24,903 nucleotides of DNA, from NCBI GenBank assembly GCA_021161965.1, contig JAGGZP010000021.1, positions 1 through 24,903 of the forward strand, in the 5' to 3' direction. The notes beneath the pieces are model-generated. The model saw nothing but the letters and a program-made list of their open reading frames with translations, did no database searches and was not told the origin of the DNA. Position 1 is the stretch's first letter, and every line of letters starts with the position of its first letter. The stretch is from a bacterium. Lineage in GTDB: Bacteria; Patescibacteriota; Patescibacteriia; UBA2591; JAGGZP01. This document shows, piece after piece, positions 2,506 through 23,437 of the stretch. A program made the position numbers and the translations under genes.

Positions 2506-3732
2506 ATGCTATCAAATGACAATATAATCAATGCTTTAGATATTGGCTCAAGTAATATTAAGTTAGCTAGTGCACGTGTCGACGAACAAAAAAATTTACA
2601 TTTAATTGGAATAGTTGAAGGACCTTCAACAGGTATTAATAAGGGAATAATTACTGATATTGAGGATACAGTAGCAAGTATCTCACATTGTTTGGATAAA
2701 GCAGAAAAAATAATTGGTTTATCACTTGATCACGCTTTTGTTGCTATCTCGGGAACACATATTATCTCACAGGATTCTCGCGGTGTCATCGCTATTTCAC
2801 ACCCTGATGGTGAAATAAAAGAAAGCGATGTAGAGCGTGTTTTAGAGACGGCCCAAACTATTGCTACGCCCCCAAACTATGAAATTATTCATGTAATTCC
2901 TCGCTCTTTTACTGTTGATAATCAGCCCGATATTAAAGACCCAGTCGGAATGACAGGTATTCGTTTAGAAGTAAATGCACAAATTATTTTGGGATTACAG
3001 TCCCAGATTAAAAATTTACGTAAATGTTTATATCGCGTTGGTATCAAGGATGATGAACTAGTTTTTACTCCCATTGCCTCGGCTCAAGCAGTTTTAAATA
3101 AAAGACAAAAAGAATTAGGTGTTGCTGTTATTGATATTGGTGATACAACCACCTCAATAATTGTTTTTGAGGAGGGAGATGTTCTAGCTATAAAAGTTTT
3201 ACCAGTTGGATCGCGGCATATTACTTCGGATATTGCTATTGGTTTGAGAATATCAATGGATTTAGCTGAAAAAATAAAGATGAATTATGGTTCGGCAATA
3301 ATTGATAAAATAAGTAAGCATGAAATAATAAATTTGAATGAGTTAGATAAAAATGAAACGGAAAGTGTTAGTCGAAAAACAATTGTTGAAATAATAAATG
3401 CTCGTTGTGAAGAAATCTTTAAATTAGTTGATAATGAACTAAAAAAGATTGACCGAAGCAGAAAATTGCCGGCAGGAGTAGTTTTAACTGGTGCCGGAGC
3501 GAAATTAAGCGGATTAGTAAATTTGGCAAAAAAAGTATTAAAATTACCAGCAATTCTTGGAGTTCCCGGAGGTTTCCAGGCAGTTAATAAAAAATTTTTT
3601 GATCCGAAATATGCTACAGTAATCGGTTTACTTCTCTGGGGCAGAGAAATGTATCTGAAACCACAGAAAAGGATAAATAGATTTAATTTCGCCGATTTGT
3701 TCAAAAGATATTTTAAAAAAATATTACCTTAA
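2506..3732 (+). CDS. ftsA: Cell division protein FtsA
   Basis: DIGSSNIK, DPVGMTGIRLEV, DIGDTTT, GSRHITSDIAIGL, VVLTGAGAKL; directly upstream of ftsZ. Confidence 0.97.
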   Translation: MLSNDNIINALDIGSSNIKLASARVDEQKNLHLIGIVEGPSTGINKGIITDIEDTVASISHCLDKAEKIIGLSLDHAFVAISGTHIISQDSRGVIAISHPDGEIKESDVERVLETAQTIATPPNYEIIHVIPRSFTVDNQPDIKDPVGMTGIRLEVNAQIILGLQSQIKNLRKCLYRVGIKDDELVFTPIASAQAVLNKRQKELGVAVIDIGDTTTSIIVFEEGDVLAIKVLPVGSRHITSDIAIGLRISMDLAEKIKMNYGSAIIDKISKHEIINLNELDKNETESVSRKTIVEIINARCEEIFKLVDNELKKIDRSRKLPAGVVLTGAGAKLSGLVNLAKKVLKLPAILGVPGGFQAVNKKFFDPKYATVIGLLLWGREMYLKPQKRINRFNFADLFKRYFKKILP

Positions 3733-11602: not shown

Positions 11603-12847
11603 ATGAAATATATTGCTGATTTTCATATTCACTCAAAATATTCCCGAGCAACCTCGAAAGATATGAATTTAGAGCATATGGATAAATGGGCAAAAATTAA
11701 GGGAATAAATATTCTTACGACAGGTGATTTTACACATCCAGGATGGTTTGAAGAATTAAAAGAAGAATTAATTGAGGTGATGCCGGGAATATATCATTTG
11801 AAAAAATATAAAAATGATTTAAAAGTAACAAATTTTGTTTTAACTACAGAAGTTTCTTGTATTTACAAAAAAGAAGATAAAGTTAGAAGAATACATCTGC
11901 TTATTTTTGCACCAAATTTAGAAGTAGTTGAAAAGATTAATAGAAAATTAGGAGAAAAATTTAATCTTAAAGCAGATGGTCGGCCAATTTTAGGAATAGA
12001 TACTGAAGAGTTAACAAAAATTCTTTTTGATATATCAAAAGAAATTTTTATTGTTCCCGCACATGTCTGGACTCCCTGGTATTCTTTATTTGGATCAAAA
12101 TCTGGCTTTGATTCAATTGAACAATGTTTTGGAGAAATGACAAAATATATTTTTGCTCTCGAAACAGGTCTAAGTAGCGATCCGCCAATGAATTGGCGTT
12201 TATCAGCATTAGATAGATTTACCTTAATAAGCAATTCTGATGCTCATTCACCAAGTAATTTAGGGCGCGAGGCAAATGTGTTAGAATTAGAAGAATTAAG
12301 TTATAAAAATATTATTGAAACAATTAAAACAAGAAAAAATTTTAAGTACACAATTGAATTTTTTCCTGAGGAAGGTAAATATCATTTTGATGGACATCGT
12401 TTATGTGGTATTTCTTTATCACCCGAGTTAGCAAAGAAAAATAAAAATATTTGCCCAAAATGTGGTTTACCCTTAACTATTGGTGTTTTGCACCGAGTTG
12501 ATGATTTAGCTGACCGGCCACTGGGATTTAAACCAAAAAACGCAGTTGATTTTAAAAGTTTGATTCCTTTGCCAGAAATTATTGGGCAAATATACGGTGT
12601 TGGAAAGAAAACAAAAAAAGTTGAAAGTGAATATAAAAGAATGATTAAAAAGGCTGGTAATGAATTTAATATTCTGCTAAACTTAAATAAGGAAGATTTA
12701 TTAAAAATTACAATTCCCGAAATTGTTCAAGCAATTTTTAATATGCGAGAAGGAAAAGTAATTAAAAAACCAGGCTATGATGGTGTTTATGGAAAAATAA
12801 AAATAAAAGTCGATGAATGGGAGGTTAAACAAAATAGACTATTCTAA
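11603..12847 (+). CDS. PHP-domain nuclease, endonuclease Q / TIGR00375-like family
   Basis: DFHIHSKYSRATS, PAHVWTPW, ETGLSSDP, SNSDAHSP, YHFDGHRLC..CPKCG zinc ligands, PGYDGVYG. Confidence 0.88.
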   Translation: MKYIADFHIHSKYSRATSKDMNLEHMDKWAKIKGINILTTGDFTHPGWFEELKEELIEVMPGIYHLKKYKNDLKVTNFVLTTEVSCIYKKEDKVRRIHLLIFAPNLEVVEKINRKLGEKFNLKADGRPILGIDTEELTKILFDISKEIFIVPAHVWTPWYSLFGSKSGFDSIEQCFGEMTKYIFALETGLSSDPPMNWRLSALDRFTLISNSDAHSPSNLGREANVLELEELSYKNIIETIKTRKNFKYTIEFFPEEGKYHFDGHRLCGISLSPELAKKNKNICPKCGLPLTIGVLHRVDDLADRPLGFKPKNAVDFKSLIPLPEIIGQIYGVGKKTKKVESEYKRMIKKAGNEFNILLNLNKEDLLKITIPEIVQAIFNMREGKVIKKPGYDGVYGKIKIKVDEWEVKQNRLF

Positions 12848-19040: not shown

Positions 19041-19324
19041 AACGCGGATAAACGCGGATTCACGCGGATGAAGAAAAATAAAATATAAAATATAAAAAAT
19101 AAAAAACACAAATAAAAAACTAAAAATTTAACCCCTCACTTGACTCACTATGTAGTGCCATGTAAAAATAAACAATCTTTAAAAGTCTATGTCAAAGAAC
19201 CAAGTGAGGAGGAAAATTAAAAATTTATTGGAAATTGGACATTGAACATTTATCTCTTGATTAGGTCAATTAGGTCAATTAGAAATTAGACATCTTCTTT
19301 TAGGTCAATTAGAGTAATTAGCCA
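19041..19324. repeat. Intergenic mosaic of 10-, 7- and 9-bp tandem repeats around a core with a 9-bp inverted repeat
   Basis: (a/c)acgcggat(a/t/g) x3 at 19041-19070; A-rich 7-mers x8 at 19074-19129; cctcacttg 19134-19142 / caagtgagg 19201-19209; ttggaaa ttggaca ttgaaca at 19228-19248; ttaggtcaa at 19261, 19270 and 19300. Confidence 0.9.
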
Positions 19325-21011: not shown

Positions 21012-21749
21012 ATGTTTCAAATTGATATTATTACAATTTTTCCAGATATTTTTAACTCCTATTTTAATACCTCAATTATAAAACGAGCACAAGACAAAAA
21101 GTTGATCAAGATAAAAATTATTAATTTACGCAATTTTACTCGAGATAAACACAAAACAGTTGACGACAAGCCATATGGGGGTGGGCCAGGAATGATACTC
21201 AGACCGGATGTTATTTATCGAGCAATTGTTTCTAGAAAAGCAAAAAGAAAAAATAAAAAGGGCAAAGTTATTTTGTTTACACCTACTGGCAAACAATTTA
21301 ACCAAAGGATTGCTAAAAAATATACAAAGTTAGATTATTTAATTTTAGTCTCCGGACATTATGAGGGGATTGATGCGAGGGTAAACAAATTTGTTGATGA
21401 AAAAATTTCAATTGGTCCTTACATTCTGACTGGCGGTGAATTACCAGCAATGATTGTTGTTGATGCTGTCACTCGATTGATTTCTGGAGTTATTAAACCT
21501 GAAAGTTTAGAAGAAGAAACTGAATTAAAAATTTGCCTACCTACCGGCAGGCAGGAAAATTCTAAATTAAAAATTATTGCGGAATATCCACAATACACCC
21601 GCCCTGAAGTGTTGACAATCAGAGATAAATATGGTAAAAAAATAGTGTTACGAGTACCAAAAATTCTTTTAAGTGGGAATCATAAAAAAATAAAAGAGTG
21701 GAGACAAAAACATAGAAAACAGTTGACAAAAAAATTTGATATTTTATAA
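21012..21749 (+). CDS. trmD: tRNA (guanine-37-N1)-methyltransferase TrmD
   Basis: VDDKPYGGGPGM, GHYEGIDARV, ISIGPYILTGGELPAM, EYPQYTRPE, VPKILLSGNH. Confidence 0.98.
   Translation: MFQIDIITIFPDIFNSYFNTSIIKRAQDKKLIKIKIINLRNFTRDKHKTVDDKPYGGGPGMILRPDVIYRAIVSRKAKRKNKKGKVILFTPTGKQFNQRIAKKYTKLDYLILVSGHYEGIDARVNKFVDEKISIGPYILTGGELPAMIVVDAVTRLISGVIKPESLEEETELKICLPTGRQENSKLKIIAEYPQYTRPEVLTIRDKYGKKIVLRVPKILLSGNHKKIKEWRQKHRKQLTKKFDIL
21520..21575. repeat. 20-bp imperfect palindrome inside a 7-bp repeat array, in-frame within trmD
   Basis: ctgaatt aaaaatt tg [cctacctaccggcaggcagg 21536-21555] aaaatt ctaaatt aaaaatt; translated as ELKICLPTGRQENSKLKI. Confidence 0.8.
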
Positions 21750-21750
21750 T
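21723..21750 (+). promoter_or_regulatory. Sigma70-type promoter of the 16S unit, inside the trmD 3' end
   Basis: TTGACA (21723-21728), 16-bp spacer, TATAAT (21745-21750); same geometry as the 23S promoter. Confidence 0.9.
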
Positions 21751-21761
21751 TAAAACAAATT

Positions 21762-21769
21762 TGTTCTTT

Positions 21770-21773
<4 letters not shown>
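21762..21773 (+). promoter_or_regulatory. boxA-like element in the 16S leader
   Basis: TGTTCTTTAAAT overlapping the start of the processing stem, as in the 23S leader. Confidence 0.65.

Positions 21774-23437
<1,664 letters not shown>

What the first reader, a model, noticed from the sequence alone, without database searches (positions are those of the whole stretch)
21520..21575. Palindromic repeat element translated in-frame within the TrmD linker
Seen: between IKPESLEEE and AEYPQYTRPE there are about a dozen more residues than in typical TrmD. The DNA is a 7-bp array (ctgaatt aaaaatt .. gaaaatt ctaaatt aaaaatt) interrupted by cctacctaccggcaggcagg. On the minus strand (cctgcctgcc-ggtaggtagg) both mismatches become G-T wobbles, a REP-like strand asymmetry. 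The 7-bp period matches the array at 19074-19129. Established precedent: Rickettsia palindromic elements insert in-frame into genes. Inference: a much smaller mobile palindrome is adding peptide (CLPTGRQ) to an essential enzyme; the mobiliser is unknown.
Basis: partly seen in the sequence, partly recalled or inferred. Interest (0 to 1): 0.65.

Follow-up and report, generated by a model that had tools for sequence, protein, structure and literature searches.

The report
Mobile mini-palindrome translated inside TrmD
A 21-base GC-rich hairpin-forming DNA element, present about twenty times in this tiny hydrothermal-vent bacterium and letter for letter in many other bacterial phyla and phage contigs, has landed in frame in the flexible linker of the essential tRNA methyltransferase TrmD and adds seven amino acids; what moves it is still unknown.

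Summary
Window 21534-21554 (21 nt, peptide CLPTGRQ) is missing at exactly that point from the three closest TrmD genes, which keep the AT-rich flanks.

- **Family in this genome:** the insert carries a 20-nt palindrome, CCTGCCTGCCGGYAGGCAGG. There are 21 sites in this 572-kb, 31% GC Patescibacteria genome, and all but the trmD copy lie outside genes or at gene ends.
- **Not an artefact:** assemblies from two further vent studies, beside the likely source sample, carry the insert.
- **Wider spread:** the same 16-mer occurs in 109 of 401 sampled genomes of the phylum (reversed control 0). The exact 20-mer also occurs in Bacteroidota, Planctomycetota, Omnitrophota, Proteobacteria and others, and in 47 viral-contig stretches.
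- **Other genes:** it sits in frame in FtsK, a dehydratase, a histidine kinase and Trp-tRNA synthetase. In the synthetase a 21-nt GLPAGRQ insert recurs at one codon, with about seven changes on the tree.
- **Unit size:** core-in-core nesting shows a 20-nt unit with no target duplication.
- **Flanks:** the 7-nt array flanks are older than the palindrome and were not shown to be its target.
- **Mover:** no RAYT was found here. Single-domain GIY-YIG (Ssn-like) nuclease genes co-occur with the core, but only about 3% of cores lie beside one, so the mover is unproven.

This scan has reported the same cross-phylum palindrome before on other DNA. I found no paper on it.

The parts
21012..21749 (+). 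trmD (tRNA m1G37 methyltransferase), 245 aa. Intact and single-copy in the genome.
   Evidence: ORF. Pfam PF01746, E 7.6e-45. One match in G000. Carries all 40 invariant columns of a 56-sequence alignment.
21534..21554 (+). The 21-nt in-frame insertion (7 codons, C175-Q181, CLPTGRQ): TG plus the first 19 nt of the palindrome. The next base, G of codon E182, completes the 20-mer.
   Evidence: Absent at exactly this point from L213, L006 and L008, which keep both flanks. Present without gaps in contigs of runs X1, X2 and X3.
21536..21555 (-). The 20-nt palindromic core. Its minus strand is the family's GGT orientation: it forms the more stable hairpin (8 bp with G.T pairs) and is antisense to the trmD mRNA.
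   Evidence: Family consensus from 21 genomic sites.
21522..21533 (+). Left AT-rich arm (ELKI). Older than the insertion and shared with relatives.
   Evidence: DNA and protein alignment. Corresponds to the TTGAAAA period-7 array in L006.
21555..21575 (+). Right AT-rich arm (ENSKLKI): three 7-nt units read in three frames. Older than the insertion.
   Evidence: Relatives read ENCKLKI, KNLKLKI or ENHRVKI.
21513..21599 (+). The whole inter-domain linker (residues 168-196), predicted disordered. This is the permissive site that holds the arms and the insert.
   Evidence: AlphaFold2 model: pLDDT below 50 for residues 168-196, with flanking domains mostly above 85.

Best explanation
**Shown.**
- Window 21534-21554 is a secondary insertion of one copy of a dispersed, gene-less palindromic micro-element with consensus (G)CCTGCCTGCCGGYAGGCAGG.
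- The unit is 20 nt and appears as 21 nt inside genes.
- It lies in the disordered linker between the SPOUT domain and the C-terminal domain of TrmD, six residues after the invariant acidic residue E169.
- It keeps the reading frame and lies within the trmD coding frame.

**Inferred.**
- It is translated as the loop CLPTGRQ.
- The loop is tolerated because the linker is flexible and already hypervariable in this phylum.
- The element spreads as a folded single strand, because it enters loops of other hairpins, the centre of its own copies, and repeat arrays, and leaves no target duplication.
- Only copies whose length is a multiple of three, read in the LP(A/T)GRQ frame, survive in essential genes.
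- The family passes between phyla, probably on phages.

**Guess, about 25%.** The mover acts in trans and is a single-domain GIY-YIG nuclease of the Ssn/UPF0213 type, not a RAYT.
For: - **Empty sites:** three relatives have clean empty sites, including the sister gene. The four family-f4 genomes in the order sample (including the two empty-site relatives L006 and L008) hold no copy of the core anywhere.
- **Distribution in G000:** there are 21 copies. Eighteen of 21 lie outside ORFs in a genome that is 89% coding (P about 7e-15). Two of the three ORF hits turn out to be a C-terminal tail and an upstream region.
- **Independent assemblies:** two further vent studies, beside the likely source sample, carry the insert.
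- **Spread:** the 16-mer is in 27 of 55 genomes of the order and 109 of 401 of the phylum, with the reversed control at 0. The exact 20-mer is in at least 120 stretches from many phyla and 47 viral-contig stretches.
- **Same behaviour elsewhere:** L035 has two extra 21-nt core-bearing inserts in trmD compared with L036. The core lies in frame in FtsK, a dehydratase, a histidine kinase and TrpRS.
- **TrpRS:** 8-9 of 120 homologues carry a 7-residue GLPAGRQ insert at one codon, with 7 parsimony changes. The inserted DNA is unchanged while the flanking synonymous sites differ.
- **Unit size:** core-in-core nesting gives a 20-nt unit with no duplication.
- **Flank context:** inverted repeats of 6 bp or more flank 8.3% of sites against 1.0% of controls. 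Shared direct words flank 21.5% against 4.9%.
- **Permissive site:** the linker has pLDDT below 50.
- **GIY-YIG lead:** the order core, then 20-67 nt, then a GIY-YIG ORF, then usually a tRNA gene is seen at 5-6 of 183 sites. Within the order, 22 of 27 genomes with the core have two or more GIY-YIG hits, against 9 of 28 without it. G000 has three such ORFs. Published Ssn nucleases cut ssDNA next to their own hairpin repeats (PMC11893778).
Against: - No relative closer than 76% nt identity exists, so the insertion cannot be dated. No empty allele was seen in the population, although contigs hide rare variants.
- Movement itself is not observed; it is inferred from presence and absence.
- None of the three GIY-YIG genes in G000 lies next to a core.
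- About 97% of exact cores have no GIY-YIG gene nearby.
- Two core-bearing genomes, 83-88% complete, show no GIY-YIG hit.
- The co-occurrence may only reflect how rich a genome is in mobile DNA, and related genomes are not independent samples.
- GIY-YIG nucleases cut but are not known to join DNA, so a paste step is missing.
- The trmD copy departs from the common flank pattern: T before and C after in the GGT orientation, where 97% of copies have a purine before.
Confidence: 0.75

Rival explanations
1. An old composite insert that relatives have trimmed. A whole module (7-nt array, hairpin, 7-nt array) entered the TrmD linker long ago. The unstable palindrome was later deleted precisely in most lineages, and G000 simply kept it.
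For: - The junction 'gaaaattg' followed directly by the core also occurs in intergenic copies in G000 (C54, C83, C45) and in the trmD linkers of L035 and L036.
- Removing a core there would leave ...aat tgc aaa..., which reads ENCK and resembles the common ENCKLKI motif.
- Palindromes are prone to deletion (established knowledge).
Against: - In G000 the core sits one 7-nt unit upstream of the ENC position and coexists with ENS.
- The sister gene and both other relatives lack it, and the family-f4 genomes (to which L006 and L008 belong) lack the core entirely.
- The copy differs from the genome's consensus at only one private, synonymous base, although trmD itself is only 76% identical to its sister.
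- In TrpRS the inserts stay unchanged while flanking synonymous sites differ.
- TTGAAAA-type words are not significantly enriched next to cores in G000: 4 of 21 sites against 10.7% of controls.
Confidence: 0.12
2. A working cis-signal, not a passenger. The hairpin is kept inside trmD because it acts on nucleic acid. It could be a processing, pausing or termination signal ahead of the 16S rRNA gene that starts about 100 nt after trmD, or a site for a DNA-binding protein.
For: - trmD is followed directly by the 16S gene.
- The sequence is held unchanged across phyla, which implies recognition by something.
- Intergenic copies sit in repeat-rich spacers near gene ends.
Against: - The stable hairpin is on the antisense strand. 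The trmD mRNA carries two A.C mismatches, one from a synonymous change that weakens the fold further.
- The sister genome has the same trmD-16S layout without the hairpin.
- Orientation of the other copies relative to neighbouring genes is mixed, about 5 sense to 10 antisense.
- No Rfam family matches.
Confidence: 0.08
3. An adaptive protein loop. The seven residues were selected for a role in TrmD, such as tRNA or partner binding, and the DNA palindrome is incidental.
For: The linker becomes ordered on tRNA binding in studied TrmDs (established knowledge). The insert is fixed in three samples.
Against: - No other TrmD among the best 120 hits carries it.
- The same peptide appears in unrelated proteins: TrpRS, FtsK, a kinase and a dehydratase.
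- Twenty other copies in G000 are non-coding.
- The linker differs completely between near-identical TrmDs (P0037 and P0041).
Confidence: 0.03
4. An assembly or library artefact.
For: Many copies lie near contig ends, and most carriers are metagenome bins.
Against: - Contigs from three runs in three studies span it without gaps.
- It keeps the reading frame of an essential gene.
- Degenerate and nested copies exist.
- Isolate genomes also carry it: Winogradskyella, Olivibacter and Flagellimonas.
Confidence: 0.02

Closest known systems
REP / BIME elements with RAYT (TnpA-REP, Y1 HUH) transposases; GTAG- and CGTC-tagged REPs (Di Nocera et al. 2013, PMC3733652)
   Same: - A short GC-rich imperfect palindrome in many copies, mostly between genes.
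- Embedded in mosaic stacks of other short repeats.
- Occasional copies inside real genes, where they add residues in loops or linkers.
   Different: - Only 20-21 nt long.
- No unpaired GTAG or CGTC tag beside the stem.
- No RAYT found in this genome or in two near-closed relatives that carry cores.
- The same letters occur across more than ten phyla, whereas most REP families in that survey sit in one or a few species.
Ssn single-domain GIY-YIG ssDNA nucleases with their NTS/SRM hairpin repeats (Chenal et al. 2025, PMC11893778)
   Same: - A hairpin repeat scattered through the genome, together with genes for roughly 80-95-residue GIY-YIG-only proteins.
- In some loci the repeat directly flanks the nuclease gene.
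- Strand-specific features fit recognition as ssDNA.
   Different: - The sequence does not fit the NTS/SRM motif.
- Copy number is about 20 here and at most 31 16-mer sites in any sampled genome of the phylum, not hundreds.
- None of the three genes in G000 lies beside a core.
- Membership of cd10448 could not be tested. The nearest solved relatives are UPF0213 proteins.
- That paper reports no in-frame gene insertions or cross-phylum identity.
Rickettsia palindromic elements (RPE; cited in PMC3733652, otherwise from my own knowledge)
   Same: A palindromic repeat inserted in frame into housekeeping genes that stay functional.
   Different: RPE-1 is roughly 100-150 nt and confined to Rickettsia. 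This element is 21 nt and shared across phyla.
GC clusters of yeast mitochondrial DNA (own knowledge; reviewed in PMC8811140)
   Same: - A GC-rich palindrome spreading in a very AT-rich genome.
- Found in spacers and in frame in a protein gene.
- No known mover.
   Different: Organellar, 30-50 nt, in several sequence classes, with reported short target duplications. Here no duplication is seen.
Free-standing GIY-YIG homing endonuclease genes, for example phage T4 SegB in the tRNA gene cluster (PMC2330249)
   Same: Small GIY-YIG genes lodged against tRNA genes, and recurrence of an insert at one site in related genes.
   Different: SegB-type enzymes carry DNA-binding domains and move their own gene. 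Here most hairpins travel alone, 21 nt at a time.

Membership tests
REP/RAYT (REPtron) | Short imperfect palindrome, many copies, mainly extragenic | tested here: met
   21 sites, 18-20 of them outside genes.
REP/RAYT (REPtron) | Conserved unpaired GTAG (or CGTC) tetranucleotide at one foot of the stem | tested here: not met
   The flank profile over 182 exact copies shows only a purine preference at -1 and G/T at +1. GTAG occurs inside the 3' arm of the GGT variant, not as a tag.
REP/RAYT (REPtron) | Cognate Y1 HUH transposase (PF01797) in the genome | tested here: not met
   - No hit in G000, which is 90.5% complete.
- Core-bearing near-closed relatives G031 and G002 also have none.
- Across the order the association is weak (odds ratio 3.5).
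Ssn / SRM system | Single-domain GIY-YIG protein of about 90 aa encoded in the genome | tested here: met
   Three ORFs of 76-91 aa, PF01541 at E 5e-15 to 4e-12.
Ssn / SRM system | The nuclease belongs to CDD family cd10448 | not testable with these tools
   - No CDD library is available here.
- The PDB sequence search gives UPF0213 proteins 1YWL and 1ZG2 at E 6e-4.
- NCBIfam gives only weak, sub-threshold hits to the group I intron endonuclease model.
Ssn / SRM system | The repeat flanks the nuclease gene | tested here: inconclusive
   Not so in G000. In other genomes the core lies 20-67 nt upstream of a GIY-YIG ORF at 5-6 of 183 sites.
Ssn / SRM system | The repeat fits the NTS/SRM motif (CGTC + ATTCCC...GGGAAT type) | tested here: not met
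   The sequence is unrelated to the motif printed in PMC11893778, compared by eye.
Ssn / SRM system | Strand-specific cleavage of ssDNA next to the hairpin | not testable with these tools
   Needs an enzyme assay.
MITE | Terminal inverted repeats around a non-coding interior, with a target-site duplication | tested here: not met
   The element is the palindrome alone. In nested copies the two halves of the outer copy add up to exactly one 20-nt unit, so nothing is duplicated.
Rickettsia palindromic elements | In-frame insertion into conserved genes | tested here: met
   TrmD, TrpRS, FtsK and others.
Rickettsia palindromic elements | RPE sequence and size (about 100-150 nt for RPE-1) | tested here: not met
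   The insert is 21 nt. The RPE size is from my own knowledge.

The most novel reading that the evidence does not exclude
The 21-nt palindrome is a self-contained homing micro-element, the smallest known. It re-enters the same codon of essential genes in separate lineages, as the roughly seven gains in Trp-tRNA synthetase suggest. It is copied into single-stranded hairpin loops after cuts by Ssn-like GIY-YIG nucleases that it accompanies on phages and tRNA-side cassettes. That link would keep its sequence identical across bacterial phyla.
Probability: 0.2. Interest if true: 0.85.

Novelty: new variant of a known kind. Interest (0 to 1): 0.62.

Why it matters
- **A limit case for mobile DNA.** An element of only 20-21 nt, with no gene, no terminal repeats and no target duplication, keeps the same letters from Patescibacteria to Bacteroidota and phages. 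It can sit translated inside essential enzymes such as TrmD, TrpRS and FtsK.
- **A practical marker.** The xLP(A/T)GRQx peptide flags such insertions in protein alignments and in annotations of uncultured bacteria.
- **A testable role for the small nucleases.** If these are Ssn-like GIY-YIG nucleases and are the movers, the finding would give that newly described enzyme family a role in spreading its own repeat. It would also supply a new ssDNA recognition sequence.
- **A permissive site.** The TrmD linker in this phylum emerges as a place where repeat DNA is repeatedly turned into protein.

Tried and rejected
- **RAYT/Y1 transposase as mover.** None was found in G000. Across the order the link to the core is weak, and core-bearing near-closed genomes lack it.
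- **The palindrome targets the TTGAAAA-type 7-nt arrays.** Not supported in G000: 4 of 21 sites against 10.7% of random intergenic sites.
- **Orientation tied to transcription.** Mixed.
- **Known RNA family.** No Rfam match.
- **Literature.** No paper holds the 12-mers of the core or the peptides LPAGRQ, PACRQAG, CLPAGR or LPTGRQ. Searches on palindromic repeats in the Candidate Phyla Radiation gave nothing relevant.
- **Dating by a near relative.** The best non-self TrmD is only 68-69% identical.
- **Empty alleles in the population.** None was seen in contigs of four runs, but contigs drop rare variants. No run shown to hold the stretch is an RNA run, so transcripts could not be examined.
- **The earlier notes' claim that the core 'almost always' accompanies a GIY-YIG gene.** My count is about 3-5% of exact copies.

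Full report
**1. What is there**

The window is contig C29 of a 572-kb, 31% GC genome in 92 contigs, 90.5% complete. Database names for its TrmD relatives place it in Patescibacteria. Runs holding near-identical DNA are hydrothermal-vent metagenomes.

trmD runs from 21012 to 21749 on the plus strand and matches Pfam PF01746 at E 7.6e-45. It is the only copy in the genome. The linker reads EETELKICLPTGRQENSKLKIIAEYPQYTRP.

None of 100 shuffles gave a match at up to three mismatches. Folded as DNA, the minus strand gives an 8-bp stem with G.T pairs at -6.7 kcal/mol (z -3.1). The plus strand gives -4.9 kcal/mol (z -1.6) with A.C mismatches. The reported strand asymmetry is therefore real.

**2. 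It is an insertion**

I pulled TrmD genes from 29 genomes of the same order and aligned them. The closest ones, L006 and L008, keep both AT-rich flanks at DNA and protein level (NLKI|ENCKLKI and DLKI|KNLKLKI). They lack exactly 21 nt, 21534-21554, which is seven codons reading CLPTGRQ.

A tree built with the linker masked puts P0002 as sister to the window's protein, with support 100/92. Its DNA (L213) is 76% identical over trmD and has the same khpA-trmD-16S-radA gene order. It reads tta aaa ttc | gaa aat at the same spot, again without the 21 nt.

None of the 119 other best TrmD hits in a 5.8-billion-protein collection carries CLPTGRQ. The 16-mer of the core is absent from all four family-f4 genomes in the order sample, the family of L006 and L008.

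Contigs from three runs in three studies (X1, X2, X3) cross the site with no gaps and at most one base difference. This rules out an assembly artefact. It also shows no empty allele, although contigs hide rare variants.

**3. It belongs to a dispersed family**

In the orientation that allows a G.T pair, the family consensus is CCTGCCTGCCGGTAGGCAGG. G000 has 21 sites at up to four mismatches.

Eighteen of the 21 lie outside ORFs of 70 aa or more, although 89% of the genome is coding (P about 7e-15). Of the three sites inside ORFs:
- One forms only the last residues of a methyltransferase-like ORF (C45).
- One lies upstream of the true start codon (C63).
- trmD is therefore the only internal copy.

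Intergenic copies sit in stacks of short-period repeats and other hairpins, much like BIMEs. The trmD copy differs from the consensus at one private base. That change is a synonymous CTG>CTA, and it weakens the hairpin in the mRNA.

**4. The 7-nt arms**

TRF calls no array at 21520-21575. In L006, however, the same position holds a period-7 array: TTGAAAA, 4.4 copies, 91% matches.

Many Patescibacteria TrmDs carry this LKIENCKLKI-type motif. It can be read as a 7-nt array translated in all three frames. The codon that would be TGA in a perfect array varies instead among Cys, Ser, Leu, Trp, Tyr and Arg. That reading is my inference.

The arms predate the palindrome and are not part of the 21-nt insertion. 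Such 7-mers are not significantly enriched beside cores in G000: 4 of 21 sites against 10.7% of random intergenic sites. I therefore do not claim that they are its target.

The linker as a whole turns over very fast. Near-identical proteins such as P0037 and P0041 have unrelated linkers. Several linkers read like translated intergenic repeat modules, for example gcggat-type 10-mers in L010.

**5. Reach beyond this genome**

The 16-mer TGCCTGCCGGYAGGCA occurs:
- at up to one mismatch in 27 of 55 genomes of the order;
- exactly in 109 of 401 genomes sampled across the phylum, with up to 31 sites per genome.

The same pattern read backwards occurs in none of these genomes.

The exact 20-mer occurs in at least 120 stretches of species-representative genomes. 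About two would be expected by chance in 596 Gb (my estimate). Carriers include Bacteroidota (among them isolates of Winogradskyella, Olivibacter and Flagellimonas), Omnitrophota, Planctomycetota, Nitrospirota, Chloroflexota, Gamma- and Deltaproteobacteria, Bdellovibrionales and Ignavibacteria. It also occurs in 47 stretches of IMG/VR viral contigs.

Flanks are unrelated between copies. In the GGT orientation the base before the core is a purine in 97% of copies, G in 75%.

**6. How it behaves**

*Nesting.* Several loci (L057, L063, L096, L102, L146) hold one core inside the centre of another. The two halves of the outer copy add up to exactly one 20-nt unit. The unit is therefore 20 nt and leaves no target duplication.

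*Flank context.* Flanks are enriched for inverted repeats of 6 bp or more (8.3% against 1.0% of controls). In those cases the core sits at the tip of a pre-existing hairpin, including one terminator-like stem (L147). Flanks are also enriched for shared direct words (21.5% against 4.9%).

*Inside genes.*
- L035 has two extra 21-nt core-bearing inserts in trmD compared with the related L036 from the same sample. One lies in a loop of the N-terminal domain and one in the linker.
- Exact cores lie in frame in FtsK, a GDP-mannose-type dehydratase, a histidine kinase ATPase domain, a PMT_2 glycosyltransferase and Trp-tRNA synthetase, always read as xLPAGRQx.
- In Daviesbacteria TrpRS, 8-9 of 120 homologues carry a 7-residue insert (GLPAGRQ or SLPAGRQ) at one codon, and the rest have a clean 7-residue gap.
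- On a tree with the insert masked, this state needs seven changes. Most carriers for which an immediate sister is resolved have a sister without it.
- In three carriers the 21 inserted bases are identical except for the C/T variant position, while flanking synonymous sites differ.

*What this suggests.* The pattern fits repeated recent gain, or conservation at the DNA level, better than one old insert drifting like its neighbours.

*Length.* All five inserts measured at DNA level (this trmD, the two in L035, and TrpRS) are 21 nt. They arise as 20 nt plus one junction base (trmD and TrpRS) or plus one internal extra base (L035). I read this as selection for frame-preserving copies, which is an inference.

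**7. Why TrmD tolerates it**

An AlphaFold2 model built from a 56-sequence alignment has mean pLDDT 80. Both domains are confident, but pLDDT is below 50 for residues 168-196. The insert, residues 175-181, lies inside this stretch. It sits six residues after the invariant E169 and ten before the conserved EYPQYTRP. All 40 invariant columns of the alignment are intact in this protein. That the linker is flexible and becomes ordered on tRNA binding is established knowledge for E. coli and Haemophilus TrmD.

**8. The mover**

*Y1/RAYT.* No Y1/RAYT (PF01797) was found in G000. Such genes do exist in 35 of 55 genomes of the order, but the link to the core is weak: odds ratio 3.5 (21 of 27 core-bearing genomes with a Y1 hit, 14 of 28 without the core). 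The near-closed core-bearing genomes G031 and G002 have none.

*The GIY-YIG lead.* Earlier notes from this scan pointed to small GIY-YIG genes, and I tested that here.
- In L089 (a complete WWE3 genome) the order is: a tRNA 5' fragment, the core, 20 nt, a 79-aa GIY-YIG ORF, then an intact tRNA-Lys.
- The same order, with the core 20-67 nt upstream of a GIY-YIG ORF that is usually followed by a tRNA gene, recurs at 5-6 of 183 exact sites.
- G000 has three such ORFs of 76-91 aa. One lies against a tRNA gene (C30) and one is preceded by a tRNA-Arg gene about 100 nt upstream (C48). One duplicates the 5' end of what reads, by eye, as an epimerase-like gene (C77). None is next to a core.
- Within the order, 22 of 27 core-bearing genomes have two or more GIY-YIG hits, against 9 of 28 without the core (odds ratio 9.3). 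Related genomes are not independent samples, and both features may simply track how much mobile DNA a genome holds.

*Published background.* Chenal et al. 2025 (PMC11893778) showed that single-domain GIY-YIG proteins (Ssn, cd10448) bind and cut ssDNA next to their own hairpin repeats (NTS/SRM). Those repeats often flank the ssn gene, and the authors raised the idea of an IS-like unit.

*Limits.* This core does not fit their motif. I could not test cd10448 membership. The nearest solved relatives of the L089 protein are UPF0213 proteins. I therefore rate an Ssn-like mover at about one in four.

**9. Comparison and verdict**

The element works like a REP, RPE or SRM-type palindromic repeat, and like the GC clusters of yeast mitochondria. 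It fails the defining tests for REP/RAYT membership (no tag, no RAYT) and for MITEs (no duplication). It is much smaller than RPEs and is not lineage-bound.

In-frame REP and RPE insertions are already known (PMC3733652), so the kind is known and this is a new variant. No paper in the searched library holds its sequence or peptide.

The scan has described the same cross-phylum 20-bp palindrome several times on other DNA. This report adds:
- a clean three-way empty-site comparison in an essential gene;
- support from independent assemblies;
- the linker model;
- recurrence at one codon of TrpRS;
- a lower estimate (3-5%) for how often the core lies beside a GIY-YIG gene.

Noticed in passing
window 19130-19215; also G000 C54:~19100-19190, C66:~11800-11890 and the C63 end: An element of about 85 nt, closed by cccctcacttg...caagtgagg(g), recurs in at least four spacers. 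Each copy is flanked by stacks of 7-10-nt repeat arrays. It has no ORF and no significant Rfam match (best hit E 0.42).
   Followed up: partly
TrmD linker in relatives (P0001-P0120; L010, L011, L035-L037): The TrmD inter-domain linker is hypervariable across Patescibacteria. Near-identical proteins (P0037/P0041, P0038/P0059, P0018/P0043) have unrelated linkers. Many linkers read like translated intergenic repeat modules, for example gcggat 10-mers in L010 and tatcca repeats in L011.
   Followed up: partly
L131, L210, L212 against L209, L211 (Daviesbacteria trpS): The same 21-nt insert (GLPAGRQ) sits at one codon of Trp-tRNA synthetase in 8-9 of 120 homologues, with about seven changes on the tree. 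The inserted DNA is unchanged while flanking synonymous sites differ.
   Followed up: yes
G000 C77:8439-8680: A 79-aa GIY-YIG ORF lies between a stranded copy of the first codons (MKKIIIVAGARPNF) and the working start (MKRKIKKVIIVVGARPNFIK...) of what reads as an epimerase-like gene. It looks like a cassette that replaced the start of the gene.
   Followed up: no
G000 C30:5870-6403 and C45:6600-6750: A second hairpin family (gtgaaccacgtagggttcac type) accompanies a GIY-YIG ORF wedged against a tRNA gene whose 5' part is duplicated upstream. The same hairpins lie about 60 nt from a core copy on C45.
   Followed up: no
G000 C54:19380-19470 and C5:250-330: Palindromic modules built around GCGATCGC (tcaaatttctcgcgatcgcgagaaatttga type) are repeated in spacers. 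The octamer is the same as the cyanobacterial HIP1 word.
   Followed up: no
L035:~3200-3230 (JGI 3300033145): A second 21-nt core-derived insert lies in a surface loop of the N-terminal domain of the same trmD gene that also has one in the linker. It is absent from the related L036.
   Followed up: partly
window 21750-21850: trmD is followed directly by the 16S rRNA gene instead of rplS, then by radA. The sister contig L213 has the same order.
   Followed up: no
L126:3861-4151: The core lies in frame between an upstream ORF and a GIY-YIG domain inside one 714-codon open frame. This may be a fusion or a read-through artefact.
   Followed up: no
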